NCBI GenBank assembly: GCA_001781415.1
Contig: MFLT01000008.1
Span: 101,916-162,624 of the forward strand
From: Candidatus Kaiserbacteria bacterium RIFCSPLOWO2_01_FULL_45_25
Lineage (GTDB): Bacteria > Patescibacteriota > Minisyncoccia > Phycocordibacterales > UBA918
Length of the DNA: 60,709 nt
Direction of reading: 5' to 3'
The notes under the pieces are model-generated. The model saw only the letters and a list, made by a program, of their open reading frames with translations. It was not told the DNA's origin and made no database searches. This document shows, piece by piece, positions 8,013 to 24,031 of this stretch (its first letter is position 1; each line of letters begins with the position of its first letter). Both the position numbers and the translations under genes were made by a program.

Positions 8013-8044
8013 AAAACGGCTGGGAACAAGTTCCCAGCCGTTTT
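8013..8044. terminator. Long intrinsic terminator-like hairpin
   Basis: AAAACGGCTGGGAAC-AA-GTTCCCAGCCGTTTT just after the stop of 8062..8790. Confidence 0.8.
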
Positions 8045-8061
8045 TCGTACGCACCTTCGTG

Positions 8062-8790: not shown

Positions 8791-8954
8791 ATATATATGT
8801 ATACCAAAAGAAGCCGAAAAAGGTTACACGACCATAAACATAGTTGAGGATAAATACCACTGTTCTACCACCCTGGACCACAAGCAACCTTTCTTCTGGT
8901 CATTAGGTTGTAGAAAATGTTAGTATGATGCAAATTTAACGGTAGTAATTATTT

Positions 8955-10013
8955 ATGAAAAAAGCACTTATCACAGGCATTACAGGACAAGACGGCTCAT
9001 ACTTAGCCGAGCTACTACTTGAAAAGGGCTACGAAGTGCATGGTATCATCCGTCCTTCAAGCTCTATCAGGACGGCCCGCATCGAACACCTTTTTAATAA
9101 TCCAGAAGTACACGACAAGACCCTCTTCCTACACCACGGCGACCTAACAGACACTACCAACATCTCTACCCTAATTCGCAACATCGAACCAGATGAGGTA
9201 TACAACCTCGCTGCTCAGAGTCATGTCCGTATTTCTTTTGACCTGCCTGAACTAACTGCCGAGACTGATGCTATGGGCACCCTTACTATCCTAGAAGCAA
9301 TTCACAAACAAGGCTTGAGTGACAAAACCAAATTCTACCAAGCCTCTACTTCAGAGCTCTACGGTCTTGTTCAAGAAACCCCCCAAAGTGAGACAACCCC
9401 CTTCTATCCCCGCAGCCCATACGGTGTAGCCAAGCTATACAGTTTTTGGATTATCAAAAATTACAGGGAAGCCTACAACATGTTTGCCTGCAACGGTATC
9501 CTTTTTAATCATGAAAGTGAGCGTCGCGGCTACAACTTCGTGACTCGCAAAATCACTATTGGCCTTTCCAAAATTAAGCTTGGTCAACAAGACGTTTTAG
9601 AGCTCGGTAATCTAGATGCTAAACGGGACTGGGGCTACGCCAAAGAATACGTAGAAGCAATGTGGCTTATGCTACAGCAAGACACGCCTGAAGACTTTGT
9701 AATTGCCACCGGCGAGACCCACAGCGTGCGAGAATTTATTGAAGCGGCTTGTGATGAACTTGGTATTAAACTTACCTGGCAAGGTACCGGAGTTGATGAA
9801 CTTGGTATTGATCAAGAGACTGGAAAAACCATCATTAAAATTAATCCTCAGTACTTCCGCCCAACTGAAGTAGACCTACTACTTGGTAATCCAACTAAAG
9901 CCAAAGAAAAACTAGGCTGGGAGGCAAAGATTAAATTTGCTGAACTAGCCAAGCTTATGACCAAAGCTGACTTTGAGCTGATGAAAAAGTACAACGGTGA
10001 ATTTCGTTTCTAG
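8955..10013 (+). CDS. gmd: GDP-mannose 4,6-dehydratase
   Basis: [48 protein letters not shown]. Confidence 0.98.
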
Positions 10014-10016
10014 ATT

Positions 10017-10457
10017 ATGATGAATCATATTCCCCTACCCACCTACAAAAAAATTCACGCCCTAATGCCTATCCCTTGTGTTGATGTAGTCATCGTCCAC
10101 GACGGAGCCGTCCTCTTGGGACTGAGACTAAATAAGCCTGCCGAAGGGGTGTATTGGTTCCCCGGTGGTCGAGTTCAAAAAGGAGAAACTCTCGCAGCGG
10201 CAGCTAAGAGAAAGGCTGAGGAAGAAACTGGCTTAACTGTAAAGATAGTCAGACAACTGGGCACAGAAGAGACTATGTTCCCAGACGGTCCATTTGACGG
10301 ACCCACTCACACCATCAACGTAGTCTTCTTAGCTACCTGCAAAAACCCGACGAACCTCAAGGCCGACTCACAAAACTCCGACCTCAAGTGGTTTACCAAG
10401 CTCCCCAAAAACTCACCGGGTTATGTCAAAAAATTCACTAAGCTTGCCCTAACTTAA
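10017..10457 (+). CDS. NUDIX hydrolase, GDP-mannose mannosyl hydrolase-like
   Basis: PIPCVDVV..P..G.YWFPGGRVQKGE..EEETG; located between gmd and fcl as Gmm/WcaH usually is. Confidence 0.85.
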   Translation: MMNHIPLPTYKKIHALMPIPCVDVVIVHDGAVLLGLRLNKPAEGVYWFPGGRVQKGETLAAAAKRKAEEETGLTVKIVRQLGTEETMFPDGPFDGPTHTINVVFLATCKNPTNLKADSQNSDLKWFTKLPKNSPGYVKKFTKLALT

Positions 10458-10466
10458 ACAAAGTTA

Positions 10467-10494
10467 AACCCCGTAGTCGCAAGACTACGGGGTT
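10467..10494. terminator. Bidirectional terminator between convergent NUDIX genes
   Basis: AACCCCGTAGTC-GCAA-GACTACGGGGTT. Confidence 0.8.
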
Positions 10495-10519
10495 CTTTGT
10501 TTTGACACAGCCTTGTTGT

Positions 10520-11074
10520 TCAAGGCATGGCCAAAGAACGAACGGGTTCCCGATGCAGATAGGAAATCGCCTTCTGCACATAAATCGGGAACACAATCTC
10601 GTGGGCGGCCTCAGGCGTAAACCAGCGGAACTCGGCCTTGTTGGTATCGAGGTGAATCTGCTGTTCGTATTCCGGCCACACCTGGAAGCAGGTACTGAGG
10701 GTGAAATAGGCTTCGCCGCCCCCTGCACTCTCGGGGTTGCAAATCGACTGCAGCAAGACGAGCTTGGTGCCACAGGCTTCAGGCACAAACCCGAGCTCCT
10801 GCCGGCAGACGCGAGGCAATGCTTCAGCCGGGATTTCGCCTGGCAAGATGCGGCCGCCCGCAAAAAACCACTCGCCCGCCCAAGGAGCTTCACGACGCTT
10901 CGTGAGCAAAAACTCGAAGCCGCGTGCGCCATACCGCGTAGGAATGACATCCGCCGTGGGCGTGTTGGACCACTGGCGGACCGCGCCAGCAACCTCGTCC
11001 GGAATGAATTTCCGCGACCGAGCAAGCTCCGCAATCTGTTCAGCGGACTGAGGATAAAAAGGATCGTGTTGCAT
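10520..11074 (-). CDS. Second, divergent NUDIX hydrolase (GDP-mannose hydrolase-like); SD-bearing accessory gene
   Basis: TPTADV..FLLTKRREAPWAGEWFFAGGRILPGE..RQELG; start moved to ATG 11074, preceded by AAAGGA. Confidence 0.8.
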   Translation of the reverse strand: MQHDPFYPQSAEQIAELARSRKFIPDEVAGAVRQWSNTPTADVIPTRYGARGFEFLLTKRREAPWAGEWFFAGGRILPGEIPAEALPRVCRQELGFVPEACGTKLVLLQSICNPESAGGGEAYFTLSTCFQVWPEYEQQIHLDTNKAEFRWFTPEAAHEIVFPIYVQKAISYLHREPVRSLAMP

Positions 11075-11135
11075 GTCTCTCTTCCTTTCAGGTGTAAAAA
11101 ACAAAAAATCGGACCAATGTCCGAGCCCAACCAGA

Positions 11136-11163
11136 ATTATGGGATATTCCATACATAAGTCAA
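11136..11163 (-). promoter_or_regulatory. sigma70-type promoter of the reverse NUDIX gene
   Basis: TTGACT-16 bp-CATAAT on the minus strand. Confidence 0.65.
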
Positions 11164-11214
11164 GCAACCCCTTTTGTTCTTATCTTGTTAGAATAAGTGA
11201 TATCATAAAAACTT

Positions 11215-12153
11215 ATGGAAACAACATCTAAAATTTACGTAGCCGGTCATCGCGGTCTCGTGGGCTCTGCTATTGTACGAGCACTAACAACCCAAGGCTT
11301 TACCAATCTCATTACGCGCACAAGTAAAGAACTGGATCTCACCAACCAAGTAGCAGTGAGTGAATTTTTCTCAACAGAAAAGCCTGAGTATGTTTTACTA
11401 GCGGCAGCCAAGGTGGGCGGAATCATGGCCAACAAAACCTACCCCGCTGAATTCATATACCAAAACCTCCAGATTCAAAACAACGTCATAGAGAACGCCC
11501 ACAAAAACGACGTCAAAAAACTTCTCTTCTTGGGAAGTTCTTGTATCTACCCAAAGATGGCTCCACAACCAATTAAAGAGGAATATCTTCTTACTGGTGA
11601 GCTTGAACCATCAAACGAGGCGTATGCCATTGCCAAGATTGCTGGTATCAAAATGTGTCAGTCATATAACACACAGTATGGAACAAACTACATCAGTGTG
11701 ATGCCGACCAACCTCTATGGTGAAAACGACAACTTCGACCTAGAGACCTCACACGTCCTCCCTGCCCTAATCCGGCGCTTTGACGAAGCCAAGACCAACA
11801 ATCTTCCTAGTGTCACCCTCTGGGGCTCTGGCACACCAATGCGTGAGTTCTTGTATGTAGACGATTTAGCTGATGCCTGTGTCCACCTCATGCAGACCTA
11901 CGACCACAGCAACGAGATTGTAAACATCGGCACTGGCGAAGACGTCACTATTAAAGAATTGGCCGAGACCATTGCCGCCACAATTGGCTACACCGGCACC
12001 CTAGAGTGGGACACCACTAAGCCAGACGGCACCCCACGCAAACTCCTCGATGTATCAAAACTCCACTCTCTTGGTTTCAAGCACAAAATCTCACTTGAAG
12101 ACGGTATCAAAAAAACCTACCGGTGGTATAAAGAAAATAACCCTGTAAAATAA
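11215..12153 (+). CDS. fcl: GDP-L-fucose synthase
   Basis: [61 protein letters not shown]. Confidence 0.98.
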
Positions 12154-12159
12154 CTGGTC

Positions 12160-12849
12160 ATGTCTCACACGACAGTAACAGACTTTACACATATTGAACT
12201 GTCTTCACACATAAAGACAGTTCTTCTTGATTTAGACAACACCTGCTACCAATACGACCCGTGCCACCAAGCTGCCATGCAAGACTTCAGGCAGGCTCTA
12301 GAAAGTATCGCTGGTCCTATTCCTGACTTTGATACGCTATATAAAGCAGCGCAGCAACAAGTGAAAGTCCGCATCCCCACTCATGCCGCCAGCCACAGTA
12401 GAGTTCTCTACGCTCAAGCCCTATGCGAGCTCATTGGTCGGACCGACGCCCATATCCATGCAGCCCACTTAGAAAAAGTCTACTGGGATACCTTCCTTAG
12501 CACTATGCAAAAAACTGCTGGGTTAGACGCTTTTCTTGCGCATTGCCGAAAAAGTGATACAACAGTTGTAGTTGTTTCTGACCTTACTACCACCATTCAA
12601 TGCCAAAAGCTGGTCGCTCTACATATTGCAGAAAATATAGACTTTTTAGTTACTGCTGAAGAAGTGGGTGCAGACAAACCTGACCCAAAGCCCTTTTTGG
12701 TAGCTCTAGAGAAAGCTGGGGGCGATATACAGACATCGATAGTAATTGGAGATAACTATGAACGCGACATAGAAGGAGCTATGGCTCTTGGCATCGCCAG
12801 TATTCTGATTACTCATGACACAAAAAATCAAACAACTCCTGTACGATAA
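12160..12849 (+). CDS. HAD-superfamily phosphatase
   Basis: Motif I LDLDNT, motif III DKP, motif IV GDNYERD. Confidence 0.9.
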   Translation: MSHTTVTDFTHIELSSHIKTVLLDLDNTCYQYDPCHQAAMQDFRQALESIAGPIPDFDTLYKAAQQQVKVRIPTHAASHSRVLYAQALCELIGRTDAHIHAAHLEKVYWDTFLSTMQKTAGLDAFLAHCRKSDTTVVVVSDLTTTIQCQKLVALHIAENIDFLVTAEEVGADKPDPKPFLVALEKAGGDIQTSIVIGDNYERDIEGAMALGIASILITHDTKNQTTPVR

Positions 12850-15800
12850 AACTGGTCACTTTAAACTTACCTTTCTTTCTTCGTATCTTTTTGTTTTTGG
12901 ACTAATCGCCAAGCTCTACGCAGCCACATTTTTTACTGGAGAAAATTTTACACATTTATTTACCCCATTTCTTAAGTCGTTTATTTTACAAGCTGGCAAT
13001 CCCTACCAATTCTTTTTTCAAAATGGTCTCCTTGAAGCTTTTCCCTATCCGCAACTGATGTTATATGTGATGTCTGCTCCCGCAACCATCATGGGTCAAC
13101 TCCTAGGCCCAGAACTATTTATTGTAACTCCTGGTGACTCACTCCTTTTCCACCTGCCTATACTAGCAGCCGACATCGTCATACTGGTAGTACTTTCTAG
13201 ATGGCTCAAAAATAAACATACAGAATTACTGTGGTTATACTGGCTTTCTCCAATCCTCTTCTACATCAACTACATCCACAGCCAACTTGATGCAGTACCA
13301 ATTGCCCTCACTTTTGTATTTCTATATTTTTTGTTTAAAGAGCGCTGGCTGTATGCTTTCATTTTTCTCGGTGCGGCCATCGCTACCAAATTCCATATAA
13401 TAATCCTACTTCCCTTTACACTAATTTATTTGTGGCGTCGTCGGGTATCAAAAGTACTCATTAGTATATTTGCAGCTCTGCCAATTCTGGTTTTTCTTAT
13501 CGTCAACAATATACAACTTCTCAGTGAGGCGTTTTTAACTATTGTCTTTGCCAATCGTGAACAAGGTAAAGTATTTGATTTACAGATGTCCCTAGGTAGT
13601 GAGCATGTACTTTATATAATTCCTTTTGCGTACATTCTATTATTTTTACACGCACTTACCTTTACTCGACTCAACCGTGACACCTTTGTCATGTTCTTGG
13701 GGTTCAGCTTCGGTATTTTAACTCTTGGCATTCCACCAATGCAGGGTTGGTACTATTGGATACTTCCCTTTTTGATATATTTTTATGTTAAAAACGAACA
13801 ATTCTCAAAAGTACCGTTCATTATTCTTACCGCTGCGTACTTTGTACATTTTGCACTTATTCCTGATTCGGACTATGTTTCAGTTTTTAGTGCCATAGCA
13901 CCTGCGGTAGCCTCCTTACCAAACCCATATGAACTAATCAGTAACGCTGGCTTCGATGCTGATTTGGTAAGTAACTTAGCTTTGAGTTTTCTACAAGCCT
14001 GTCTATTCATGAATGTGCTGTGGCTATACCGTCGTGGTGTAGAAGAAAGTAAAAAACAAAAGTTATACAACATGCCATACCTTATTGGTATTGCTGGTGA
14101 TTCTGGTAGTGGCAAGAGCACCTTAACTGATCTATTTGTTGACCTATTTGGTACCAAGCACGTAGCTATAGTACCTGGTGATGCAATGCATAAATGGGAA
14201 CGAGGAGATACCATGTGGAGTAAATTTACCCACCTCGACCCTAGAGCAAATCAATTGCACCACGACCTAGAATATGTCCGTCAATTGCAAAGCGGGCAAG
14301 ATATCTACCGTCGCCATTATGACCACCATACTGGTAAATTTTCAACTCCAGACAAGCTAGAGTCGAAGTCGGTCGTAGTCTTTGAAGGACTACACTCTTT
14401 CTTCTTAACTGAGATGCAGCAGGCGCTTGATCTAAAAGTATTCATCAAACCCGACGATCAACTACGCACTCACTGGAAAGTAAAGCGTGATATGGCTGAC
14501 CGTGGCTATACCAAAGACAAGGTACTCGCCCAACTCAAAACCCGCGAGCAAGACGCCAAAGAATACGTAAACATCCAAGAGAAATACGCCGATATTACTT
14601 TCTCACTAAAGTCCCTCATCACCATTCCTGAGACAGACATTGGTACTGATATTAATGTACCGGTTTATCTGGAAATCACTTGCGATAATAAGATCTACCT
14701 TGAGCCATTCCTCGAGACACTTTCTACGTATGTAAACATTGAGCACACCTTTACCGACAAACACCAAATAGTGAGCTTAACTGGTTCAATCTCTGGTTCA
14801 GTACTAGAACACCTATCGTACTCACTCGTGCCAGACTTGTTTGATATTGTTACCGAAAAACCACACTGGTCTTCCGATCATCGCGGCATCATGCAGCTCT
14901 TTATCTCGTACTACATTCTCAACTCTCTCAACTATAATCGTCAATCAACTCCGACTAAACCTTTGCGTAGAAACGCTACACTTACCGATATCGTACAGAG
15001 TGCCAACCTAATTGGTGCTGAGTGTACTTACGTACAAGGTGGAGGAGGCAATGTTTCTGTAAAAATCAATAATGACGTCATGGCTGTAAAAGCCTCTGGA
15101 CTACGCTTGGAGGAACTCCAAGAAACATCTGGTTTTGTCGGTATCGACCACTGTGCAGTACGGCGCTTTTTTAATACCCCGCGTGACAACAATACTGACG
15201 CTAAAGCCCTAGCGACGGCTTACAATGCAGCAATCTCGGCCAGCAAAGTAGCGTTGCCGGGCTATCCTGACACAGAACTTCGACCATCAATTGAGACCGG
15301 ATTTCATGCCATCCTCGATACCGCTGTGATTCACACTCATTCTGTCTTCGTAAATATCCTGACTTGTAGTAACGAAGGTACCGACATCTTGAAGAAACTT
15401 TTTCCCGAAGCTGCCTTTGTCCCCTACTACACCCCCGGAGCCTCACTTACATTTGCCATCAGTCAATTCTTAAAGACCGCTCCATATACCGTTTTCTTTC
15501 TGGAGAATCATGGAGTTATTGTCTCAGGCAAGACAGTAGCTGAAGCTCATTCCAAGCACGCTGAGATAAACTCTGTCATTAAAAAATACCTCCACCTCCG
15601 TGACGATTTCCCTGTTACTGCCGTAGTTACCGAAGCTGATGGTCGGCTAGTAAGCAACCACGCCTCTTTGCGTGCGTTCATTTTAAAACACTCAGACTTA
15701 CTCCCCATCTTTACTGAGACGATTCTATTTCCAGACCAGGTAGTATATTGCACCAAGTTTGGCTTTGCGGGAGATAATAAACCAATTACCGTAGACAGAG

Positions 15801-15991
15801 TGACTGGAGAGATTACCTATGATGTATCATATAAAGAAGCCCTAGCCTTTATTGAAACGTTTGTTGCTTGGGTATATATTGAATCAGAAATTCGCCGCCA
15901 CAACTTCATCCACAAACTCATAACTGCCGAAGAAGGCCAATACATCCTAAACATGGACAGCGAAAAATACCGCCAAAGACTAATCACTTAG
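12815..15991 (+). CDS. Three-domain fusion: GT-C-like membrane domain + uridine kinase/phosphoribulokinase-like kinase + class II aldolase/epimerase
   Basis: N-terminal ~410 aa polytopic region with YIHSQLD; IGIAGDSGSGKST P-loop and FEGLH from about 14072; QGGGGNVSVK, VKASG, RPSIETGFH, VIHTH, LENHG from about 14980. Confidence 0.85.
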   Translation: MTQKIKQLLYDKTGHFKLTFLSSYLFVFGLIAKLYAATFFTGENFTHLFTPFLKSFILQAGNPYQFFFQNGLLEAFPYPQLMLYVMSAPATIMGQLLGPELFIVTPGDSLLFHLPILAADIVILVVLSRWLKNKHTELLWLYWLSPILFYINYIHSQLDAVPIALTFVFLYFLFKERWLYAFIFLGAAIATKFHIIILLPFTLIYLWRRRVSKVLISIFAALPILVFLIVNNIQLLSEAFLTIVFANREQGKVFDLQMSLGSEHVLYIIPFAYILLFLHALTFTRLNRDTFVMFLGFSFGILTLGIPPMQGWYYWILPFLIYFYVKNEQFSKVPFIILTAAYFVHFALIPDSDYVSVFSAIAPAVASLPNPYELISNAGFDADLVSNLALSFLQACLFMNVLWLYRRGVEESKKQKLYNMPYLIGIAGDSGSGKSTLTDLFVDLFGTKHVAIVPGDAMHKWERGDTMWSKFTHLDPRANQLHHDLEYVRQLQSGQDIYRRHYDHHTGKFSTPDKLESKSVVVFEGLHSFFLTEMQQALDLKVFIKPDDQLRTHWKVKRDMADRGYTKDKVLAQLKTREQDAKEYVNIQEKYADITFSLKSLITIPETDIGTDINVPVYLEITCDNKIYLEPFLETLSTYVNIEHTFTDKHQIVSLTGSISGSVLEHLSYSLVPDLFDIVTEKPHWSSDHRGIMQLFISYYILNSLNYNRQSTPTKPLRRNATLTDIVQSANLIGAECTYVQGGGGNVSVKINNDVMAVKASGLRLEELQETSGFVGIDHCAVRRFFNTPRDNNTDAKALATAYNAAISASKVALPGYPDTELRPSIETGFHAILDTAVIHTHSVFVNILTCSNEGTDILKKLFPEAAFVPYYTPGASLTFAISQFLKTAPYTVFFLENHGVIVSGKTVAEAHSKHAEINSVIKKYLHLRDDFPVTAVVTEADGRLVSNHASLRAFILKHSDLLPIFTETILFPDQVVYCTKFGFAGDNKPITVDRVTGEITYDVSYKEALAFIETFVAWVYIESEIRRHNFIHKLITAEEGQYILNMDSEKYRQRLIT

Positions 15992-16061: not shown

Positions 16062-16086
16062 AACCCGCTTCACGTGGAAGCGGGTT
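16062..16086. terminator. Bidirectional terminator
   Basis: AACCCGCTTC-ACGTG-GAAGCGGGTT between convergent genes. Confidence 0.75.
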
Positions 16087-16111: not shown

Positions 16112-16741
16112 TTAAAGACCACTAGCCTCCCACTGCGGTGCTTCTTCGAGAGAAGTCATAACGGCTGTTGGCGAAAAATTGAGAGCCTTCATCTCAGCAA
16201 CGTACGCCGCGATATCTGCCGGTCGACCCCACCGCTCGGGACAAACCAAACAGGTCTTAAAGCCCTGCAAGCGACGCACAATATCTGCGTCAAGCGGAAG
16301 TTGAGTGTTGGTATCGATCCAGACCCAATCGAGAAGCGGCTGTCCATCGACTACCTGTGCCTCGACTGCCTCAATAGGCTCAGCTTCGCTGTAACGAACA
16401 GCAATCTTCCTGACGCCTTCTTTGCGCGTAGCCCGGTAAAGATAAGGGAACTCGACATCAAGCAGGAAGTAGTCGCTTATGCCATAACTTTCGACCAAAT
16501 CCATCGCTACTTGCTCGTAGCCAGCCTCCTTCAGATTGAGGATGATGCCGCCAGTCAGACCACGATCGACGTAAGCCTCGAGAAAAGTCTCAAGATCTAC
16601 GTATTCGATGTCACTTTTCAGCGGATCATGATTCAGCAGCATTCGCTCGCCCCAGCCACGAATATCAATTTCAACCCCAAAGTGTTGTGGGACACGAGCC
16701 AGCTTTTCCAAGGTGTTAACTCTGTGTGCAAATATTTTCAT
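16112..16741 (-). CDS. Glycerophosphodiester-phosphodiesterase-like (PI-PLC/GDPD fold) protein; SD-bearing accessory gene
   Basis: AHRVN..GVEIDIR..LNHD motifs, WVWID, CLVCPE; AGGAG 5 nt before ATG; TTGACA at 16817-16822. Confidence 0.75.
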   Translation of the reverse strand: MKIFAHRVNTLEKLARVPQHFGVEIDIRGWGERMLLNHDPLKSDIEYVDLETFLEAYVDRGLTGGIILNLKEAGYEQVAMDLVESYGISDYFLLDVEFPYLYRATRKEGVRKIAVRYSEAEPIEAVEAQVVDGQPLLDWVWIDTNTQLPLDADIVRRLQGFKTCLVCPERWGRPADIAAYVAEMKALNFSPTAVMTSLEEAPQWEASGL

Positions 16742-16875
16742 ATAGACTCCTGCTTATCAATTGGGATACAAAATTGCACCCCTTCTAGTTCGGATAATTA
16801 CACAAATATAAACTACTGTCAATAATAGATCTCGTAATGATTAAAGAATTATTATGTATAATAATCACACATTTT

Positions 16876-17772
16876 ATGAAATTAGTCATCCCAATGTCAG
16901 GTAGTGGTAGCCGTTTCGTTCAGGCTGGCTACTCTTCGCTTAAGCCACTGATTTTAGTTGAAGGTCGTCCACTCATTGCTCATGTCCTCGATATGTTTCC
17001 TGGCGAAGAGGATGTTGTATTTATCTGTAATCCAGAACACATAGCTACAACTGACGTGGTAGCTATACTCAAATCCCTTAAACCTAACTGCACGATAATC
17101 ACTACCGCGCCAGGTAAACAAAAAGGACCGGTAGAAGCCCTCACACACGCCTTTACTGTCATTGGTGACGATGAAGATGTGCTAGTAAGTTATTGCGACT
17201 TTACTCAAGCGTGGGACTACGCTACCTTTAAAGACTCCACCAAGACTGGTCAATTCGCTGGAGCCGTACCTGCCTACACCGGCTTTCACCCTCACCTGCT
17301 TAGGAAAAACCTCTATGCCGGAATAATTGCTGATCAAAATAATGTAATGCTCAATATACAAGAGAAGCACTGCTTCACTGAAAATCCAGAGGATTCATAT
17401 CATTCAGGCGGCATATACTACTTTGCTTCAGGAGAACTACTTAAGCGCTATGCTACAGAATTAATTAAAAGTGGTGTAAACCTAAATGGTGAATACTACG
17501 CAAGTATGATGTACCCATTATTACTGAAAGATAACCATTCAGTATCCGTCCCTACAGCAGACACCTTTATGCAATGGGGCACACCTGAAGATTTAGAAGA
17601 GTACGAAGCTTGGTCCAGACTGCTACATGCAGAGCTAGGCCTACAAAAGCAAAGGACAGATATACCAGAAGCGAGAGAAGAATTAGTAAAAATCCCCTAC
17701 CCCGAAAATTCTCCTGAGTTTCAAAAGAGTTATAGGTACTGGCACAATTATTTTAAACAATCACAACTATGA
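16876..17772 (+). CDS. Sugar-phosphate nucleotidyltransferase-family protein 1
   Basis: LVIPMSGSGSRFVQAGY..LKPLI, SYCD, WGTPEDL; start moved to ATG 16876. Confidence 0.85.
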   Translation: MKLVIPMSGSGSRFVQAGYSSLKPLILVEGRPLIAHVLDMFPGEEDVVFICNPEHIATTDVVAILKSLKPNCTIITTAPGKQKGPVEALTHAFTVIGDDEDVLVSYCDFTQAWDYATFKDSTKTGQFAGAVPAYTGFHPHLLRKNLYAGIIADQNNVMLNIQEKHCFTENPEDSYHSGGIYYFASGELLKRYATELIKSGVNLNGEYYASMMYPLLLKDNHSVSVPTADTFMQWGTPEDLEEYEAWSRLLHAELGLQKQRTDIPEAREELVKIPYPENSPEFQKSYRYWHNYFKQSQL

Positions 17773-18587
17773 TAAACATCATTCCTATGGCCGGCCTTGG
17801 TTCACGATTTGCTCAAGAAGGCTACCTGTTACCAAAGGCTCTTGTTCCCGTTTCTGGTAAACCAATGATCACACAAGTAATTAACCATCTACCAGAAGCC
17901 GAAAAATCTGTCTTCATCATACGCAAGGAACATCTTACTGATTATAAAATTGATGAAGTTATTAAAAACACACAAATAAATACAAGAATAATTGCTCTTG
18001 ATAAAACTACCGAGGGTCAAGCCTCTACTTGTCTTCTAGGACTTGAAGGGGTGGATGATGAGGAAGAAGTTTTTATCAGTGCTTGTGATAATGCTTTTGT
18101 TTTTAATGTTGAGAAATTCGAGGCTTTAAAAAAAAGAAGTGATGTTGATTGCATTGTCTGGACATTCACTCAGGATGAACTTCTAACCGCCAAACCTGAA
18201 GCTTGGGGCTGGATTAAACTAGATAGCGACGGTGAAACTATCAACGATATGTCGGTCAAAATCCCAGTTTCTGACGACCCTTTTAATGACCACGCAGTAG
18301 TGGCCACATTTTGGTTTCGCCGGGCTGGTGACTACAAAGCTGCTTACGCCAAAATGGTTGAAGAAAACCATCGTGTCAACAATGAGTTTTATGTTGACTC
18401 AATGCCGGTATTTATGAACAAATTAGGGAAAAAAAGTGTCATCTTCCCAGTTGATTTATATGTTGGTTGGGGCAAGCCGGCCGACCTACACCTCTACGAT
18501 TTACGCGAATATCAATACGAGATAAAACAAGGGGAGGGCTTCGAAAACAAAAACTGGCACTCTTACTTCTCTCACCTTTCAAAATAA
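17769..18587 (+). CDS. Sugar-phosphate nucleotidyltransferase-family protein 2
   Basis: IIPMAGLGSRFAQEGY..PKALV, TEGQASTC, SACD, NNEFYV, GWGKPADL; ATGA overlap with the previous gene. Confidence 0.85.
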   Translation: MINIIPMAGLGSRFAQEGYLLPKALVPVSGKPMITQVINHLPEAEKSVFIIRKEHLTDYKIDEVIKNTQINTRIIALDKTTEGQASTCLLGLEGVDDEEEVFISACDNAFVFNVEKFEALKKRSDVDCIVWTFTQDELLTAKPEAWGWIKLDSDGETINDMSVKIPVSDDPFNDHAVVATFWFRRAGDYKAAYAKMVEENHRVNNEFYVDSMPVFMNKLGKKSVIFPVDLYVGWGKPADLHLYDLREYQYEIKQGEGFENKNWHSYFSHLSK

Positions 18588-20312: not shown

Positions 20313-20431
20313 TTGGCTCTCCTTGAAAAGGACCGATTAGCACTATGCGTCTCGTATCTATTACAGATTAAAACATACTTTTATACATTTGTATATACAT
20401 GACGATAGACTGTATACTAAGTCTAATACTC

Positions 20432-20842
20432 ATGCGAAAAACTTTTGAAATATTCACGCTAAACTTTTTTACAAAAAACTTTGCTACGTTTTTTTGTATT
20501 GGCGTTACTACTGCCCTTTTTGACTACTTATTATATATTTTTCTCCTATCACACGATTGGCCGATGCTGCTGGCTAAATCTTTAGCTTCAGCAATTGCTG
20601 TGGTATTTAATTACTTACTCAATTCTAAATTTAATTTTGGCAAGGTCCATACCATGAGCTTAAAACACCTAGGCTATTATGGAATTTTGTATGTTTTTCT
20701 CATCCTTATTCATACACTATTTAACCAAGGATTGTTTATCGTCCTAAACAATGTCAATATAGCTGTATTTGGGGCACTATGTATTTCAACTTTTGTGAAT
20801 TACATAGGTGTCAAAAAGTTTTTCAATCATTTTCGTAACTAA
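20432..20842 (+). CDS. GtrA-family small lipid-linked sugar flippase
   Basis: Four TM helices, F..IGVTTALFDY, AVVFNYLLNSKFNF, FVNYIGVKKF; start moved to ATG 20432. Confidence 0.85.
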   Translation: MRKTFEIFTLNFFTKNFATFFCIGVTTALFDYLLYIFLLSHDWPMLLAKSLASAIAVVFNYLLNSKFNFGKVHTMSLKHLGYYGILYVFLILIHTLFNQGLFIVLNNVNIAVFGALCISTFVNYIGVKKFFNHFRN

Positions 20843-20856
20843 TAATTTTATTCTGT

Positions 20857-21552
20857 ATGTTGTTTGAACTCGCAAAAAAACTAAGCTTTATTCAAAACAT
20901 TGTGGTGGATATGCAAACATCACTACATCCTTCCATCATGCACAATCTTGGGAAGATTGAAATGATTAAGAAAGCCATGTGGCATTGTGAACTAGAAGGT
21001 ATAACTGGCGACTACTTCGAGTTTGGAATCTATGAGGGCACTTCATTGTACGCAGCTGTCAAAGCTCACAAAAAAATAAACAGTGCGTACAAGCGAAACT
21101 TCTACGGTTTTGACTCTTTTGATGAAGGCTTTAAATATTTTGACACCAAGGACAAGCATCCTTATTTTAAGGAGGGAGACTTTGTAAGTTCATATGAAAA
21201 GGTGTTACGAAGATTTCGAAAATTCCCTCACGTAAAATTGATTAAAGGATATTTTGAAGAAACCACAACCACTCCTGAAGCAAAAAATATTTACGGGGAC
21301 AACAAATGTGCCATCATTTTTATTGACTGTGACTTGATGCACCCTGCTGGTGTTGCACTTGAGTATGTATACCCAATACTGCAGCCTGGCTCAATCATTA
21401 TTCTGGATGATTACTTTGCCTACAAGGGAGCTGAGGACCTAGGTACCAGTGGTGCCTTACGCGCTTTTCAAGAAAAGCACCCTACGGTTAAGGTACGAGA
21501 ATTTTCTGATTATGGATACGGAGGTAAATCTTTTGTGGTAACTAGTTTATAA
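20857..21552 (+). CDS. TylF/MycF (macrocin O-methyltransferase) family protein
   Basis: GDYFEFGIYEG, YGFDSFDEG, IKGYFEET, FIDCDL, PGSIIILDDY. Confidence 0.88.
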   Translation: MLFELAKKLSFIQNIVVDMQTSLHPSIMHNLGKIEMIKKAMWHCELEGITGDYFEFGIYEGTSLYAAVKAHKKINSAYKRNFYGFDSFDEGFKYFDTKDKHPYFKEGDFVSSYEKVLRRFRKFPHVKLIKGYFEETTTTPEAKNIYGDNKCAIIFIDCDLMHPAGVALEYVYPILQPGSIIILDDYFAYKGAEDLGTSGALRAFQEKHPTVKVREFSDYGYGGKSFVVTSL

Positions 21553-21568
21553 ACATAATTTTATAGGT

Positions 21569-22279
21569 ATGAAGTTATCTATAGTAATTCCCTGCTACAA
21601 CGAGGCAGAGAATATCCCTAAATTAATCCGAGCATACGCTGAGGTAATCACTCGGAACGACATTGAGATTATCTTGATCAACAACGGATCGACTGACAAC
21701 ACAGCCGCACTTCTCACCGAACTTGCTCCACAACACTCACCTTGGCTTCATGTAGTTACTGTACCGGTGAATGAAGGCTACGGGTTTGGTATTCTGCAAG
21801 GCCTCAGGGCCGCTCAAGGTGAGTTTATTGGTTGGACCCACGGTGATCTACAAACACCCCCCGAGGACGTTTTAACTGCCCTTAGCATTATTGAGTCAAA
21901 AGGTAGCCCTACTGACATTTTTGTAAAAGGAAATCGTTACGGACGTCCTCTTTTTGATCTTATCTTTACTTGGGGAATGAGTGTATTTGAAACTATTTAC
22001 ATGGGGACAGTGTTATATGACGTGAACGCACAACCAAACGTATTTCACAGAAGTTTTTTTCAAGACTGGACAAACCCGCCACACGACTTTGCCCTTGATT
22101 TATACGCCCTATATATGGCCAAGAAAAAAGGCATCAAAATCATACGCTACCAGGTACCGTTTCTTAAGAGAGTACATGGCGAATCAAAATGGAATACTGG
22201 CTTTGGTGCAAAGTGGAAATTTATCAAGAGAACAATCTCGTTTAGCGTTATGTTGAAAAAACGCCTCCTTACAAAATAA
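21569..22279 (+). CDS. GT2 glycosyltransferase, polyprenyl-phosphate glycosyltransferase (GtrB/DPM-like)
   Basis: SIVIPCYNE, NNGSTD, NEGYGFGILQG, WTHGDLQ, R.HGESKW. Confidence 0.88.
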   Translation: MKLSIVIPCYNEAENIPKLIRAYAEVITRNDIEIILINNGSTDNTAALLTELAPQHSPWLHVVTVPVNEGYGFGILQGLRAAQGEFIGWTHGDLQTPPEDVLTALSIIESKGSPTDIFVKGNRYGRPLFDLIFTWGMSVFETIYMGTVLYDVNAQPNVFHRSFFQDWTNPPHDFALDLYALYMAKKKGIKIIRYQVPFLKRVHGESKWNTGFGAKWKFIKRTISFSVMLKKRLLTK

Positions 22280-22291
22280 TCCCGGTTTTAC

Positions 22292-24031
22292 ATGATTAAT
22301 CAAATATTTTCAAAAAATGCTCTGACTTATGTTTTTATAGTCATTGTTTTTGTTAGTTTTTTGATACATCTTAATTTTAGACAATCTCATTTTCAAGAAT
22401 TGGATTCATCTGGTGTCTATTATGTCTTAAATAATTTTCCGACAAGTGCTATGAATTTCATAAGCATGTCATACATGAGTGAAAATTTAAAAATTTTCAA
22501 GACAAGAGAAGCAGCAGAAAATTTTTTTAATAAAGAAATAGTTGATAAAAATTTAAGAGCAGTACTGGGAGCAAAATATAATGACAAAAATAAAGAACTG
22601 ATAATATCAGAGATCTATCAGGGTAAATCAATATTTTTCTATTTGCGGGCTGCTGAAATTTTAGCTTTAAATAAAATAGTACACTTGCTACCAATCCCTT
22701 TGTTTACCAGTATAGTACAACCGCTTTCATCGACATATTCTCCTGGTCCTGGTTTTTTCTACGGATTCATGGGTGCACACAGCTCTTATGATGACTTCAT
22801 GAAATTTGCTGGAACTTTTCAGCTTTTGATATTTCATTTAGGTGTCTTAATCATGTTCTTTACTGTTTCATTTTTGAGTAAAAATCGATTTACTGCACTG
22901 ACAGTTGGATCATTGATGCTATTTTCATATTCTTTATATTCTTATGCCCATCACATGGGAAGCGTTACATGGAATATATTTGTACCTACTATCTTCATAG
23001 GGTTATTACTCTATTACTATAACAAGGAAAGAGAGGATATTTTGCGTAGAGTTTCGATTATATCTTCATGGCTCCTACTTTTTAGTTACCTAGTTCCCTA
23101 CTTATGGTTTGCTACCATAACTTCAATAGTAGTAATTGATAAAAATAGCGGTATTAGTGTATTCAACTTAGAGTATCTAAAAAAGATTGTTATAAGTCAG
23201 AAATGGTTCCTAGTATCTTCCGTTGTTTGTTTGCTATTAATCCTTCCTCCAAGCCAAGGTTTTCGAGGTTCAGCAGAATCATTAGTGGAATTTATTCAAT
23301 TTTTCTATTACGGACTATTAAATTACTTTTATTTATACGGAAACCTTACTTATCTCTCACTAATCGAATTCTGGGTATTTTTTACCCTGTTCGTGAGCGG
23401 TCTATATGTTGGTTATAAAAAGATCAAGGGTTCAGAAAAAAAACTGATCTGGTATTTTATAGTATCTTTACTAGCGCTCTATTCTGTATCGGTTGTATTT
23501 AACATTCTCAGCTTTATACCTTCTCGTCATATATTATTTTTGACACCAGTATTATTTATCATCATTTCGTTTGCAATCGATGTTTTATACAAGCGACTAG
23601 ATATGGTGTTGTTAGTATTATTTAATGTACTGTTGATATCAGCTGGTTTTTATTCAGTAATTGCCAGCCAAGACGTAACCTTTGACCAAACGCTTCATGC
23701 CAAAGTTCCAACATACATAGACTCAGTTATAGTGTACGGTGAAAATTATCCTTTAAAATATAGGTTCGAAGACTCACATCACGCGTTCATAAAGAAAGGA
23801 AATGTTTTATTGAGTGAACAAATAAAGCCCAATGTAAGATATCTCTACGTGAGTCAACTTGGCTGTTTTGAGGATTTGCTCCAAGATGCAAAAGACGAGG
23901 GTATACATGTTGTTCTTGAGAACAAAAAGCAATACGTGACCGACCAAAAATTTATTGCTTTTGATCCTAGTGACTTTGTATTCAATAGCCCAAATAATTA
24001 TTGCCAGGCTGAATTTATTTGGAAGGAATAA
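22292..24031 (+). CDS. Polytopic membrane protein, putative GT-C glycosyltransferase (GtrX-like) or polymerase
   Basis: About 11 TM segments, acidic QELDS after TM1, periplasmic loop and tail; very AT-rich; follows GtrA and GT2. Confidence 0.55.
   Translation: MINQIFSKNALTYVFIVIVFVSFLIHLNFRQSHFQELDSSGVYYVLNNFPTSAMNFISMSYMSENLKIFKTREAAENFFNKEIVDKNLRAVLGAKYNDKNKELIISEIYQGKSIFFYLRAAEILALNKIVHLLPIPLFTSIVQPLSSTYSPGPGFFYGFMGAHSSYDDFMKFAGTFQLLIFHLGVLIMFFTVSFLSKNRFTALTVGSLMLFSYSLYSYAHHMGSVTWNIFVPTIFIGLLLYYYNKEREDILRRVSIISSWLLLFSYLVPYLWFATITSIVVIDKNSGISVFNLEYLKKIVISQKWFLVSSVVCLLLILPPSQGFRGSAESLVEFIQFFYYGLLNYFYLYGNLTYLSLIEFWVFFTLFVSGLYVGYKKIKGSEKKLIWYFIVSLLALYSVSVVFNILSFIPSRHILFLTPVLFIIISFAIDVLYKRLDMVLLVLFNVLLISAGFYSVIASQDVTFDQTLHAKVPTYIDSVIVYGENYPLKYRFEDSHHAFIKKGNVLLSEQIKPNVRYLYVSQLGCFEDLLQDAKDEGIHVVLENKKQYVTDQKFIAFDPSDFVFNSPNNYCQAEFIWKE

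What the first reader, a model, noticed from the sequence alone, without database searches (positions are those of the whole stretch)
12815..15991. Unusual triple fusion: GT-C-like membrane domain, PRK/uridine-kinase P-loop and class II aldolase
SEEN: one uninterrupted 1058-aa ORF with a polytopic N-terminus (YIHSQLD motif resembling GT87/PIG-M-type GT-C enzymes), an intact Walker A (GDSGSGKST) and a class II aldolase/epimerase with all three Zn-binding His (HTH...NHG). KNOWN: PRK/UK enzymes phosphorylate ribulose-5P or nucleosides; class II enzymes (AraD, FucA, RhaD) act on ketose phosphates; GT-C enzymes use lipid-linked donors outside the cytoplasm. INFERENCE: a membrane-tethered module coupling ketopentose- or ketohexose-phosphate synthesis to extracytoplasmic transfer. 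I do not recognise this three-part architecture.
Basis: partly seen in the sequence, partly recalled or inferred. Interest (0 to 1): 0.65.

Follow-up and report, generated by a model that had tools for sequence, protein, structure and literature searches.

The report
Glycosyltransferase, phosphoribulokinase and aldolase fused
One real 1058-residue protein of a tiny (about 1 Mb) Saccharibacteria-type bacterium joins a membrane glycosyltransferase-fold domain, a complete Calvin-cycle-type phosphoribulokinase and an aldolase-fold enzyme. It is a rare fused form of two neighbouring genes from a widespread, unstudied gene set that probably turns ribulose 5-phosphate into an unusual sugar for the cell surface.

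Summary
ORF 12815-15991 is intact and has three confidently folded domains: a GT-C fold membrane domain (aa 1-410), a full phosphoribulokinase (PRK) fold (aa 418-707) and a class II aldolase fold with a family-specific C-terminal extension (aa 721-1058). A disordered linker (aa 708-720) joins the last two.

The fusion is not an assembly error. The same single frame occurs in four genomes of the genus and in about 17 protein clusters.

It is a lineage-specific fusion. In about 64 of 80 related loci from many phyla, a GT-C::PRK gene is followed directly by a separate aldolase gene. The fused forms make one clade.

Both genes belong to a conserved cassette:
- a HAD phosphatase whose best match, in 46 of 46 cases, is ribulose-1,5-bisphosphate 5-phosphatase
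- GT-C::PRK
- the aldolase-like enzyme
- a PLC/GDPD-like protein
- two nucleotidyltransferases
- a GtrB-like GT2
- GtrA
- a second, variable membrane protein, GT-C-like by profile in several lineages.

The genome has ribulose-phosphate epimerase but no RuBisCO.

Best reading: Ru5P is converted to RuBP, then to ribulose-1-phosphate, then to an activated, lipid-linked pentose-derived sugar that is transferred outside the membrane. The product and the aldolase step are unknown. I found no paper describing this architecture.

The parts
12160..12849 (+). HAD-family phosphatase. Its best family match is ribulose-1,5-bisphosphate 5-phosphatase. It overlaps the start of the fusion ORF by 35 nt.
   Evidence: Pfam Hydrolase/HAD_2. 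NCBIfam NF053830 at E 5e-48 and 164 bits, below the 330-bit cut-off. All 46 of 46 cassette HADs hit this family, and its best E-value across members (4e-60) is about 20 orders better than the next family's.
12815..15991 (+). The 1058-aa fusion ORF (GT-C::PRK::class II aldolase-like), stop codon included.
   Evidence: Full-length AF2 model has pLDDT 88.6 and pTM 0.75.
12815..14044 (+). GT-C fold membrane domain, aa 1-410. By my reading it has about 12 TM helices with N and C termini inside. Conserved motifs FPYP (76-79), YxHxQxD (153-159), K192, NREQxK (247-252) and PPMQGWYYW (307-315) lie on outer loops.
   Evidence: AF2 model. Foldseek top 18 hits are all GT-C. Invariant residues. Positive-inside tally. 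Weak GT87, Alg6_Alg8 and ALG3 hits in relatives.
14066..14935 (+). Complete phosphoribulokinase-fold domain, aa 418-707. It has Walker A at 428-436, D456/H504 aligned with the PRK catalytic Asp-His dyad, and the motifs GDxMHKWER and WKxxRDxxxRG.
   Evidence: PDB phmmer: 6hzk and 6kev PRK at E 7e-39, uridine kinases at 1e-13. Foldseek aligns about 300-350 columns to whole PRK chains, TMt 0.6-0.8. Invariant residues. Dyad definition from PMC9978339.
14936..14974 (+). Disordered linker, aa 708-720. It lies where the two genes end and start in split relatives.
   Evidence: It is the only internal segment with pLDDT below 50. Sequence is variable here, and split proteins end at this point. In split relatives the two frames overlap or abut.
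14975..15988 (+). Class II aldolase-fold domain, aa 721-1058. It has the GGGGNVS and KASG phosphate loops, E827, H831, H840, H842 and H899. A family-specific C-terminal extension (about aa 925-1058) carries the invariant FPDQ (972-975) and the conserved EKYR motif.
   Evidence: Pfam and NCBIfam. PDB 3m4r at E 2e-11 and TMt 0.77. Invariant residues in 57 sequences.
16062..16086 (.). Bidirectional terminator-like hairpin (10-bp stem, T-runs on both strands) between the fusion ORF and the convergent PLC/GDPD-like gene.
   Evidence: This is a consensus scan only.
16112..16741 (-). Cassette member 'U209', a small PLC/GDPD-like protein with HR..ExD..HD motifs. It is present in 63 of 81 loci.
   Evidence: hhalign against true GDPDs is weak (E 5e-4, probability 32%). 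RefSeq names the E. coli plasmid homologue a PI-PLC/GDPD family protein.
16837..18587 (+). Two tandem, overlapping sugar-phosphate nucleotidyltransferase genes: NT1 at 16837-17772 and NT2 at 17769-18587.
   Evidence: Pfam NTP_transf_3 and NTP_transferase. Both carry a GxGSRF signature. The closest structure is 4evw. They are fused as NT1::NT2 or NT2::GT2 in other lineages.
20399..24031 (+). GtrA-family protein (20399-20842), TylF-like methyltransferase (20857-21552), GtrB/ArnC-like GT2 (21569-22279) and a 579-aa protein of unknown family that occupies the variable membrane-protein slot of the cassette (22292-24031).
   Evidence: Cassette co-occurrence. Second membrane proteins of other lineages are remote homologues of the GT-C domain. 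The window's own 579-aa protein gave no significant match and was not checked for transmembrane helices.

Best explanation
**Shown by computation.**
- The ORF is a natural fusion of two adjacent genes, made once in a Patescibacteria sublineage.
- The two genes are a GT-C::phosphoribulokinase gene and the class II aldolase-like gene that follows it.
- Both belong to a conserved cassette found in many bacterial phyla and in at least one archaeal MAG.
- The cassette holds a HAD phosphatase, GT-C::PRK, the aldolase-like enzyme, a PLC/GDPD-like protein, two nucleotidyltransferases, a GtrB-like GT2, often GtrA, and a second, variable membrane protein (GT-C-like by profile in several lineages).

**Inferred mechanism.**
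1. On the cytoplasmic face, the PRK domain phosphorylates C1 of ribulose 5-phosphate to give ribulose-1,5-bisphosphate. The genome's own ribulose-phosphate epimerase can supply the substrate.
2. The HAD phosphatase, whose gene overlaps the start of the fusion ORF by 35 nt, removes the 5-phosphate to give ribulose-1-phosphate.
3. The aldolase-fold domain, now tethered to the kinase, acts on this ketose-1-phosphate. It more likely remodels it (epimerisation through a metal-bound enediolate) than cleaves it for catabolism.
4. The PLC/GDPD-like enzyme and the two nucleotidyltransferases convert the product into a nucleotide-activated sugar.
5. The GT2 loads that sugar on polyprenyl phosphate, and GtrA helps it across the membrane.
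6. The outward-facing GT-C domain of this protein, and/or the second membrane protein, transfers it to a surface glycan.

**Effect of the fusion.** It fixes a 1:1 ratio of kinase and aldolase-fold enzyme and holds both at the membrane.

The identity of the sugar is unknown.
For: **The fusion is real and arose once.**
- A single frame is seen in 4 genomes of the genus, in L001-L004 and in about 17 clusters.
- The fused forms are monophyletic (support 99/97) and nested among split Patescibacteria forms.
- The linker is the only disordered internal segment.

**The ancestral state is split.** In about 64 of 80 loci the aldolase gene overlaps or abuts the end of GT-C::PRK.

**The cassette is conserved** across 81 loci: anchor 81, NT/GT2 74, separate aldolase 68, HAD 65, U209 63 and GtrA 32.

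**Fusions in other lineages link the parts.**
- GtrA::GT-C::PRK.
- Soluble PRK::ALD.
- NT1::NT2 and NT2::GT2.

**The kinase looks like a true PRK.**
- True PRKs match at E 7e-39, uridine kinases at 1e-13.
- The whole PRK fold is matched, TMt up to 0.80.
- D456 and H504 align with the PRK catalytic dyad and are invariant.

**The phosphatase matches RuBP 5-phosphatase.**
- All 46 of 46 cassette HADs hit that family, with the strongest E-values of any family.
- The reference enzyme makes Ru1P, and its pathway partner is a FucA-type Ru1P aldolase (PMC9700705).

**The aldolase-fold domain looks active.**
- Metal, acid-base and phosphate-loop residues are invariant.
- The nearest families are ketose-1-phosphate aldolase domains.

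**The membrane domain is GT-C with an outward face.**
- The fold is GT-C.
- Conserved motifs lie on outer loops.

**Genome context.** There is no RuBisCO in the genome, and Rpe is present.
Against: - No step has been assayed, and no product is known.
- The HAD score (164 bits) is below the family's curated cut-off (330 bits). The PRK NCBIfam score (191 bits) is below its cut-off of 236. Substrates could therefore differ.
- The GT-C domain has no invariant acidic residue in its first outer loop, where catalytic Asp residues of GT-C enzymes usually sit (recalled from the literature). Only D120 (within TM2) and D159 (second outer loop) are invariant. PIG-U, a GT-C fold subunit of GPI transamidase that I recall as non-catalytic, is among the structural matches.
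- Five Bacteroidota loci lack the aldolase gene within the stretch held, so that step is not universal.
- A ketose-1-phosphate is not an anomeric phosphate, so the way into a nucleotide sugar is unexplained.
- The second membrane protein of this window (22292-24031) showed no detectable similarity to GT-C.
Confidence: 0.6

Rival explanations
1. Catabolic or salvage shunt. [quoted passage not shown] This would have no role in glycan synthesis, and the membrane domain would be only an anchor.
For: The HAD and the aldolase fold match the two haloarchaeal enzymes of that route. A soluble PRK::ALD fusion without a membrane domain exists. The aldolase catalytic set is the FucA-like PSxE..H, HxH and NHG set.
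Against: - The trio is almost always embedded with two nucleotidyltransferases, a GtrB-like GT2, GtrA and further GT-C-like proteins inside glycan clusters.
- Gene fusions link PRK to GtrA and NT2 to GT2.
- The route would spend ATP to reach DHAP, which the ordinary pentose phosphate pathway already yields.
- Five loci lack the aldolase but keep everything else.
- The match to the Ru1P aldolase family itself is weak, at 24-29 bits.
Confidence: 0.1
2. The kinase acts on something other than free Ru5P. Candidates are a lipid-linked or nucleotide-linked sugar phosphate, another ketose phosphate (xylulose-5-P, a hexulose or heptulose phosphate) or a nucleoside. The membrane domain would bind or present that substrate rather than act as a glycosyltransferase.
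For: - Fusion of the kinase to the membrane domain is universal in 80 loci, which suggests a membrane-associated step.
- The membrane domain is unusually conserved for an acceptor-specific GT-C, at 47% mean column identity.
- It lacks an invariant first-loop acid.
- The non-catalytic PIG-U is a structural neighbour.
- Curated PRK and RuBP-phosphatase cut-offs are not reached.
Against: - The PRK catalytic dyad and the motifs shared with cyanobacterial PRK are invariant.
- Similarity to uridine kinase is far weaker.
- A variant without any membrane domain exists, which argues for a soluble substrate.
- Conserved residues of the membrane domain sit on the outer face, away from the kinase.
Confidence: 0.2
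3. Artefact. The 1058-aa frame would result from a sequencing or assembly frameshift that joined two genes.
For: In most relatives the two genes are separate, and their frames overlap at exactly this point. Read mapping could not be done.
Against: - The same single frame without stops is seen at 98, 71 and 67% identity in three other genomes of the genus.
- It is seen in four independent MAG contigs.
- It is seen in about 17 clusters from different sources.
- The fused forms make a well-supported clade.
- The linker varies in sequence but not in frame.
Confidence: 0.01

Closest known systems
Phosphoribulokinase of the cyanobacterial, plant and archaeal type (PDB 6hzk, 6kev, 9qko, 5b3f)
   Same: - About 45% identity over the first 184 residues (my estimate from the alignment).
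- The whole roughly 300-residue fold is matched, TMt up to 0.80.
- The Walker A motif is shared.
- D456/H504 align with the catalytic Asp-His dyad.
- The motifs DxxHxxxR and WKxxRDxxxRG are shared.

Sources.
   Different: - It is fused behind a 12-TM GT-C domain.
- The genome has no RuBisCO.
- It scores below the curated PRK cut-off, 191 against 236 bits.
- The sequence of the C-terminal third is not matched by PRK profiles.
- It sits in a glycan cluster, not a carbon-fixation operon.
Non-carboxylating pentose bisphosphate pathway of haloarchaea: RuBP 5-phosphatase plus Ru1P aldolase (Sato et al. 2022, PMC9700705)
   Same: A HAD phosphatase of the same family (46 of 46 best hits) sits next to a Zn-type class II aldolase-fold enzyme. 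RuBP is used without RuBisCO.
   Different: - There, RuBP comes from nucleosides through ribose-1,5-bisphosphate, and the end products are DHAP and ethylene glycol.
- Here, RuBP would come from Ru5P by a PRK.
- The aldolase-fold enzyme here belongs to a different subfamily with a 130-aa extension.
- The neighbours here are nucleotidyltransferases, GT2, GtrA and GT-C proteins.
Three-component glycan modification systems (GtrA/GtrB/GtrC; ArnC/ArnE-F/ArnT; CsbB/GtcA/YfhO)
   Same: A GtrA-family protein, a GtrB/ArnC-like GT2 and a GT-C fold membrane protein share one cluster. GtrA is even fused to GT-C::PRK in some relatives.
   Different: - Those systems use common nucleotide sugars, so they carry no kinase, phosphatase or aldolase module of their own.
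- Here the conserved GT-C is fused to a kinase.
- Here a second, variable membrane protein is present as well, GT-C-like by profile in several lineages.
GT-C enzymes of the ALG6 / PIG-M (Gpi14) / PimE (GT87) structural class
   Same: Fold match: 9wno at TM 0.59/0.61, 6snh at TMq 0.66, and 9dm5 and 9dm7. Relatives give weak Pfam GT87, Alg6_Alg8 and ALG3 hits.
   Different: - The window's own domain has no Pfam hit.
- A profile search gives no sequence-level PDB hit.
- There is no invariant acidic residue in the first outer loop.
- Sequence identity to the structures is 12-16%.
NDP-heptose activation logic (GmhA, HldE/HddA kinase, GmhB HAD phosphatase, HldC/HddC nucleotidyltransferase). Recalled from the literature.
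   Same: The logic is the same: a second phosphate is added to a sugar phosphate, a HAD phosphatase removes the original one, and a nucleotidyltransferase acts on what remains.
   Different: The enzyme families for the kinase differ. The substrate is a ketopentose, so the retained 1-phosphate is not anomeric. Two nucleotidyltransferases and a PLC/GDPD-like enzyme are present instead of one nucleotidyltransferase.
N-terminal aldolase domain of bifunctional aldolase/short-chain dehydrogenases (RhaEW/YuxG type; PDB 3m4r from Thermoplasma)
   Same: These are the best NCBIfam hits (E 1e-21 for the domain alone) and the best structure (3m4r at E 2e-11 and TMt 0.77). The metal and phosphate-binding residues are the same.
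   Different: There is no dehydrogenase domain. Instead there is a 130-aa extension with FPDQ and EKYR motifs. Scores are far below the curated cut-offs, 76 against 1014 bits.

Membership tests
Phosphoribulokinase (PRK, EC 2.7.1.19), dimeric cyanobacterial/plant/archaeal type | P-loop kinase of the PRK/UK fold that is closer to PRKs than to uridine kinases | tested here: met
   PDB phmmer gives PRKs at E 7e-39 to 1e-23 and uridine kinases at about 1e-13. Foldseek matches whole PRK chains with TMt 0.6-0.8.
Phosphoribulokinase (PRK, EC 2.7.1.19), dimeric cyanobacterial/plant/archaeal type | Catalytic Asp-His dyad (Asp58/His106 in Arabidopsis PRK, PMC9978339) and Walker A | tested here: met
   D456 aligns with the D of the cyanobacterial PRK motif lDdyH. 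H504 aligns with the H of ynHetG. Both residues and the P-loop G425..K434 are invariant in 74 sequences.
Phosphoribulokinase (PRK, EC 2.7.1.19), dimeric cyanobacterial/plant/archaeal type | Score above the curated family cut-off | tested here: not met
   NF005655 scores 190.8 bits against a cut-off of 236. Only positions 6-222 of 326 profile positions are matched.
Phosphoribulokinase (PRK, EC 2.7.1.19), dimeric cyanobacterial/plant/archaeal type | ATP-dependent conversion of Ru5P to RuBP | not testable with these tools
   This needs an enzyme assay.
GT-C glycosyltransferases | GT-C membrane fold | tested here: met
   The AF2 model has pLDDT 92.6. The top 18 Foldseek PDB hits are all GT-C fold proteins.
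GT-C glycosyltransferases | Conserved acidic catalytic residue in the first extracytoplasmic loop (recalled from the literature as typical of GT-C enzymes) | tested here: not met
   No invariant Asp or Glu lies between aa 40 and 105. The only invariant acids are D120 (TM2) and D159 (second outer loop). Structure-based residue equivalence could not be checked because no coordinates were available.
GT-C glycosyltransferases | Use of a polyprenyl-phosphate-linked sugar donor on the outer face | not testable with these tools
   Only context speaks for it: a GtrA and GtrB-like GT2 in the cluster, GtrA::GT-C::PRK fusions and conserved motifs on outer loops.
Glycosyltransferase family 87 (Pfam PF09594) | Significant match to the family model | tested here: not met
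   The window's domain has no hit at E up to 1. Of 75 relatives, 24 hit at E up to 0.01, the best at 1e-7.
Class II (metal-dependent) aldolase/epimerase superfamily (Pfam PF00596) | Family match above cut-off, with the three His metal ligands, the Glu and the phosphate loops | tested here: met
   PF00596 scores 67.9 bits against a cut-off of 22.2. E827, H840, H842, H899, GGGGNVS and KASG are invariant in 57 sequences.
Ribulose-1-phosphate aldolase (NF053831) and L-fuculose/rhamnulose-1-phosphate aldolases | Score above the curated equivalog cut-offs | tested here: not met
   Scores are 24-29 bits against 300 (Ru1P aldolase), 35 against 250 (FucA) and 52 against 568 (RhaD-ADH).
Ribulose-1,5-bisphosphate 5-phosphatase (NF053830), for the neighbouring HAD gene | Best-scoring family and score above cut-off | tested here: inconclusive
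   All 46 of 46 cassette HADs hit this family, whose best E-value across members (4e-60) is about 20 orders better than the next family's. For the window's own HAD it is the top hit, but its score of 164 bits is below the 330-bit cut-off.
Gtr-type three-component glycosylation | GtrA-family protein, polyprenyl-phosphate GT2 and GT-C in one locus | tested here: met
   GtrA is at 20399-20842. The GT2 at 21569-22279 has ArnC, PgfS and PpgS as its best matches. The GT-C domain belongs to this ORF.

The most novel reading that the evidence does not exclude
The cassette is an undescribed route to an anomerically activated ketopentofuranose (ribulo- or xylulofuranose). RuBP, otherwise known mainly as the RuBisCO substrate, would serve as a committed glycan-biosynthesis intermediate.

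Proposed steps:
1. PRK and the HAD move the phosphate from C5 to C1.
2. The aldolase-fold domain sets the stereochemistry.
3. NT1 activates the 1-phosphate.
4. The PLC/GDPD-like enzyme cyclises it to a 1,2-cyclic phosphate and opens that ring to the 2-phosphate, which is anomeric.
5. NT2 makes the NDP-pentulose.
6. GT2, GtrA and GT-C then deliver it.

This would fill the gap noted for Xulf-containing O antigens, whose precursor genes are unknown (PMC7685785).

I reached this chemistry before reading earlier notes of this scan that propose the same. That agreement is not independent evidence.
Probability: 0.2. Interest if true: 0.85.

Novelty: new variant of a known kind. Interest (0 to 1): 0.62.

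Why it matters
**If the reading is right.** A Calvin-cycle-type enzyme and its product RuBP have a second, widespread job in building cell-surface glycans, in organisms that have no RuBisCO. These range from ultra-small Patescibacteria to Bacteroidota and Proteobacteria, and include an archaeal MAG and an E. coli plasmid.

**What this fusion adds.** The triple fusion is a natural 'Rosetta stone'. It shows that the aldolase-fold enzyme works with the kinase. Together with GtrA::GT-C::PRK, PRK::ALD, NT1::NT2 and NT2::GT2 fusions elsewhere, it ties all cassette parts into one pathway.

**Practical value.** It offers a compact single-polypeptide target for biochemistry. It also makes an open question directly testable: how rare ketopentose residues, or another pentose-derived unit, are activated for transfer.

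**What is less new.** The fusion itself is a rare variant, represented by one 50%-identity cluster among the best 150 hits in 1.84 billion representatives. The cassette it belongs to has been flagged repeatedly in this scan, so the novelty of this particular window is moderate.

Tried and rejected
**Searches that gave nothing.**
1. A sequence-profile search of the membrane domain against PDB found nothing. Only fold comparison worked.
2. Literature searches for a GT-C plus phosphoribulokinase fusion, and for ribulose-1-phosphate plus nucleotidyltransferase plus polysaccharide, found no relevant paper.

**The E. coli lead from earlier notes.**

3. The complete cassette is on IncR plasmid NZ_CP145712.1.
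   - Only 2 of 5426 complete E. coli genomes carry it, both on plasmids at 100% identity, in both near and distant DNA modes.
   - No link to the Xulf-containing serogroups O95 and O97 could be shown or excluded.

**Weak or failed analyses.**

4. Calling U209 a GDPD rests on weak evidence. hhalign aligned 42 columns at probability 32%, the PDB profile hit was at E 1.1 and Pfam found nothing. I keep 'PLC/GDPD-like' as tentative. The motifs and the RefSeq name of the E. coli homologue support it.
5. A combined alignment with stand-alone aldolases misaligned them and was discarded.

**Readings considered and rejected.**

8. A uridine-kinase reading of the kinase is rejected on a gap of about 25 orders of magnitude in E-value.
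9. A Calvin-cycle role is rejected because the genome lacks RuBisCO.

**Not possible.**

10. I could not obtain model coordinates, so I could not test whether D120, D159 and K192 cluster in three dimensions.

Full report
**1. The observation**

The frame 12815..15991 (+) is open for 1058 codons. Pfam places a PRK/uridine-kinase domain at aa 423-597 (E 3e-39) and a class II aldolase domain at aa 736-923 (E 1e-18).

- YIHSQLD at aa 153-159
- GDSGSGKST at aa 428-436
- IHTHS at aa 839-843
- ENHGV at aa 897-901.

The N-terminal 420 residues have no Pfam hit of their own. Some relatives hit GT87, Alg6_Alg8, ALG3 and PIG-U weakly.

**2. The fusion is real**

The window lies in a 0.96-Mb, 98%-complete genome. 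Its nearest public relative is labelled Candidatus Saccharibacteria (L001, 98% identity).

Evidence that the single frame is genuine:
- It occurs without internal stops in 4 of 25 genomes of the genus, and in none of 16 other families of the order.
- It occurs in four independent MAG contigs.
- It occurs in about 17 protein clusters at 59-98% identity from different sources.

The independent assemblies settle the point.

**3. The three domains**

*Membrane domain.*
- An AlphaFold2 model of aa 1-420, built on 75 homologues, has pLDDT 92.6 and pTM 0.91.
- Its top 18 Foldseek PDB matches are all GT-C fold proteins: Gpi14/PIG-M, ArnT, PimE, PIG-U, ALG6, ALG3/9/12, STT3, EmbB and AftB.
- From the helices, the positive-inside rule and the need for the ATP-using kinase to be cytoplasmic, I read 12 TM helices with both ends inside. 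On that reading all conserved motifs lie on outer loops: FPYP, YxHxQxD, K192, NREQxK and PPMQGWYYW.
- One defining feature is not met. No acidic residue is invariant in the first outer loop. Only D120 (in TM2) and D159 are invariant.

*Kinase domain.*
- It is about 45% identical to cyanobacterial PRK over 184 residues by my estimate from the alignment (E 7e-39). Uridine kinases reach only about 1e-13.
- In the full-length model (pLDDT 88.6, pTM 0.75), aa about 418-707 superpose on entire PRK chains with TMt up to 0.80.
- D456 and H504 align with the catalytic Asp-His dyad of plant-type PRK. They are invariant in 74 sequences, as are GDxMHKWER and WKxxRDxxxRG.

*Aldolase domain.*
- It keeps the Glu, the three His and both phosphate loops, invariant in 57 sequences from many phyla.
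- Its closest families are the aldolase halves of bifunctional aldolase/dehydrogenases and PDB 3m4r.
- It has a family-specific extension of about 130 aa with FPDQ and EKYR motifs.

*Linker.* The only disordered internal stretch is aa 708-720.

**4. Where the fusion came from**

- Of 80 related loci from 185,579 species genomes, only L001-L004 carry the three-domain frame.
- In about 64 loci, a 680-750-aa GT-C::PRK gene is followed at once by a separate 290-370-aa aldolase gene, usually with overlapping frames. A small frameshift in that overlap would be enough to fuse them (inference).
- In marine Flavobacteriaceae the aldolase gene sits a few genes upstream.
- In five Bacteroidota loci the aldolase gene is missing.
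- In a maximum-likelihood tree the fused forms make one clade (support 99/97), nested among split Patescibacteria forms. This points to a single fusion event.
- Among 1.84 billion 50%-identity representatives, the best 150 hits contain the triple fusion once. They contain a soluble PRK::ALD fusion once. More than 140 of them are the two-domain form.

**5. The cassette**

Clustering all ORFs of the 81 loci shows a conserved set:

| Component | Loci (of 81) |
|---|---|
| Anchor (GT-C::PRK) | 81 |
| Nucleotidyltransferase/GT2 group (typically three genes) | 74 |
| Separate aldolase gene | 68 |
| HAD | 65 |
| 190-240-aa protein 'U209' | 63 |
| GtrA | 32 |
| TylF-like methyltransferase | 17 |

There is also nearly always a 520-690-aa polytopic protein of variable family.

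- Several of these variable proteins are remote homologues of the anchor's membrane domain. hhalign gives probability 87-94% at E 1e-7 to 4e-6.
- U209 carries HR..ExD..HD motifs and is tentatively PLC/GDPD-like. In the five aldolase-less loci a canonical GDPD takes its place.
- All 46 of 46 cassette HADs hit NF053830, ribulose-1,5-bisphosphate 5-phosphatase, and that family's best E-value across members (4e-60) is about 20 orders better than the next family's.
- That reference enzyme was shown to make ribulose-1-phosphate, which a FucA-type aldolase then cleaves (PMC9700705).

Gene fusions in other lineages link every part:
- GtrA::GT-C::PRK
- PRK::ALD
- NT1::NT2 in Flavobacteriaceae, a Micrarchaeia MAG and an E. 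coli plasmid
- NT2::GT2 in Alphaproteobacteria.

**6. The cassette in this window**

| Coordinates | Strand | Gene |
|---|---|---|
| 12160-12849 | + | HAD (overlaps the ORF start by 35 nt) |
| 12815-15991 | + | fusion ORF |
| 16062-16086 |. | terminator-like hairpin |
| 16112-16741 | - | U209 |
| 16837-17772 | + | NT1 |
| 17769-18587 | + | NT2 |
| 20399-20842 | + | GtrA |
| 20857-21552 | + | TylF-like methyltransferase |
| 21569-22279 | + | GT2 |
| 22292-24031 | + | 579-aa protein of unknown family |

Upstream lie GDP-fucose genes (gmd, NUDIX, fcl). Downstream lie a Wzx-type flippase and further glycosyltransferases. The genome has ribulose-phosphate 3-epimerase but no RuBisCO.

**7. Mechanism**

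*Shown:*
- the domain folds
- the conserved catalytic residues
- the gene linkage
- the fusions.

*Inferred:*
1. Ru5P is phosphorylated to RuBP by the PRK domain.
2. RuBP is trimmed to Ru1P by the HAD.
3. Ru1P is handled by the aldolase-fold domain.
4. The product is activated by U209 and the two nucleotidyltransferases.
5. It is loaded on polyprenyl phosphate by the GT2 and flipped with GtrA.
6. It is transferred by GT-C domain(s).

I favour remodelling over cleavage for the aldolase step, for two reasons. Five loci do without the aldolase while keeping the rest. Cleavage products would give the downstream enzymes nothing specific to work on. This is inference only.

The membrane domain is highly conserved, while the second membrane protein varies (its GT-C character is shown for some lineages only). 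That suggests the anchor recognises the conserved donor, or a conserved acceptor, and the variable paralogue adapts to lineage-specific acceptors (inference).

**8. Comparison with known systems, and novelty**

- The kinase is PRK-like but below the curated cut-off.
- The HAD and aldolase pair echoes the haloarchaeal non-carboxylating pentose bisphosphate pathway.
- The GtrA, GT2 and GT-C trio echoes Gtr and Arn systems.
- The kinase, HAD and nucleotidyltransferase logic echoes NDP-heptose synthesis.
- No known system combines these, and I found no paper on the architecture.

Earlier notes of this scan on other genomes reached the same cassette reading. I tested their E. coli plasmid lead and confirmed it. 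It occurs in only 2 of 5426 complete E. coli genomes. The proposed link to xylulofuranose-containing O antigens (PMC7685785) therefore remains untested.

**9. Verdict**

- The finding is real.
- The triple fusion is a rare, derived form of a widespread and uncharacterised pathway module.
- Its main value is as linkage evidence and as a convenient experimental handle.

Noticed in passing
L082:210-2192 (Logan contig SRR22198282_292857; protein P0111): This is a soluble PRK::class II aldolase fusion (648-660 aa, 43% identical to aa 411-1057 of the window protein). It has no membrane domain, and the 209 nt upstream hold no matching frame. It shows that the kinase and the aldolase-fold enzyme can work as a unit off the membrane.
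   Followed up: partly
proteins P0130, P0172, P0183, P0238: A different triple fusion exists in which a GtrA domain is fused in front of GT-C::PRK (772-844 aa). Among the best 150 representatives, at least 15 are 770-845 aa long with a 105-210-aa N-terminal extension.
   Followed up: partly
L030:11739-13220, L038:6109-7710, L027:10036-11421; L060:4687-6333, L052:11013-12602, L081:5612-7279: In alphaproteobacterial loci the second nucleotidyltransferase is fused to the GT2 (NT2::GT2). In Flavobacteriaceae, a Micrarchaeia MAG and the E. coli plasmid the two nucleotidyltransferases are fused to each other (NT1::NT2).
   Followed up: partly
L081 (E. coli plasmid NZ_CP145712.1, record 6022-14984): The complete eight-gene cassette sits on a 33-kb IncR plasmid from a human stool isolate, about 1.6 kb from an IS26 transposase gene. 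An identical copy is on a plasmid of strain ES3 from a bullfrog. No other of 5426 complete E. coli genomes has it.
   Followed up: yes
L045, L063, L065, L066, L079: Five Bacteroidota loci lack both the aldolase gene and U209. Directly after GT-C::PRK they carry a canonical GDPD (Pfam PF03009, E 2e-27). Whether an aldolase gene lies elsewhere in those genomes was not checked.
   Followed up: no
L052 (MAG labelled Candidatus Micrarchaeia archaeon): GT-C::PRK, the aldolase gene and a fused NT1::NT2 are present in a DPANN archaeal MAG at 32% identity. This suggests transfer across domains, or a binning error.
   Followed up: no
window 16112-16741 (-): The PLC/GDPD-like gene is inverted relative to the rest of the cassette here and in L001. 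In L002-L004 it is on the same strand as the fusion gene. A 10-bp-stem bidirectional terminator-like hairpin (16062-16086) separates the convergent genes.
   Followed up: partly
window 10520-11167 (-): A second NUDIX hydrolase gene (Pfam E 2e-11) lies on the reverse strand between the forward NUDIX (10017-10457) and the fcl-like gene. ORFs of similar length on the + strand there have no family hit.
   Followed up: partly
window 19680-20312 (-): This 210-aa ORF has no Pfam or NCBIfam hit and is conserved next to the cassette in L001 and L002 (cluster c34). Another first-stage note calls it a 2H phosphoesterase. That was not tested here.
   Followed up: no
window 5736-7928 (-): A 730-aa protein with an O-antigen-ligase (Wzy_C) domain followed by TPR repeats lies just upstream of the glycan cluster, next to murB and secA.
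   Followed up: no
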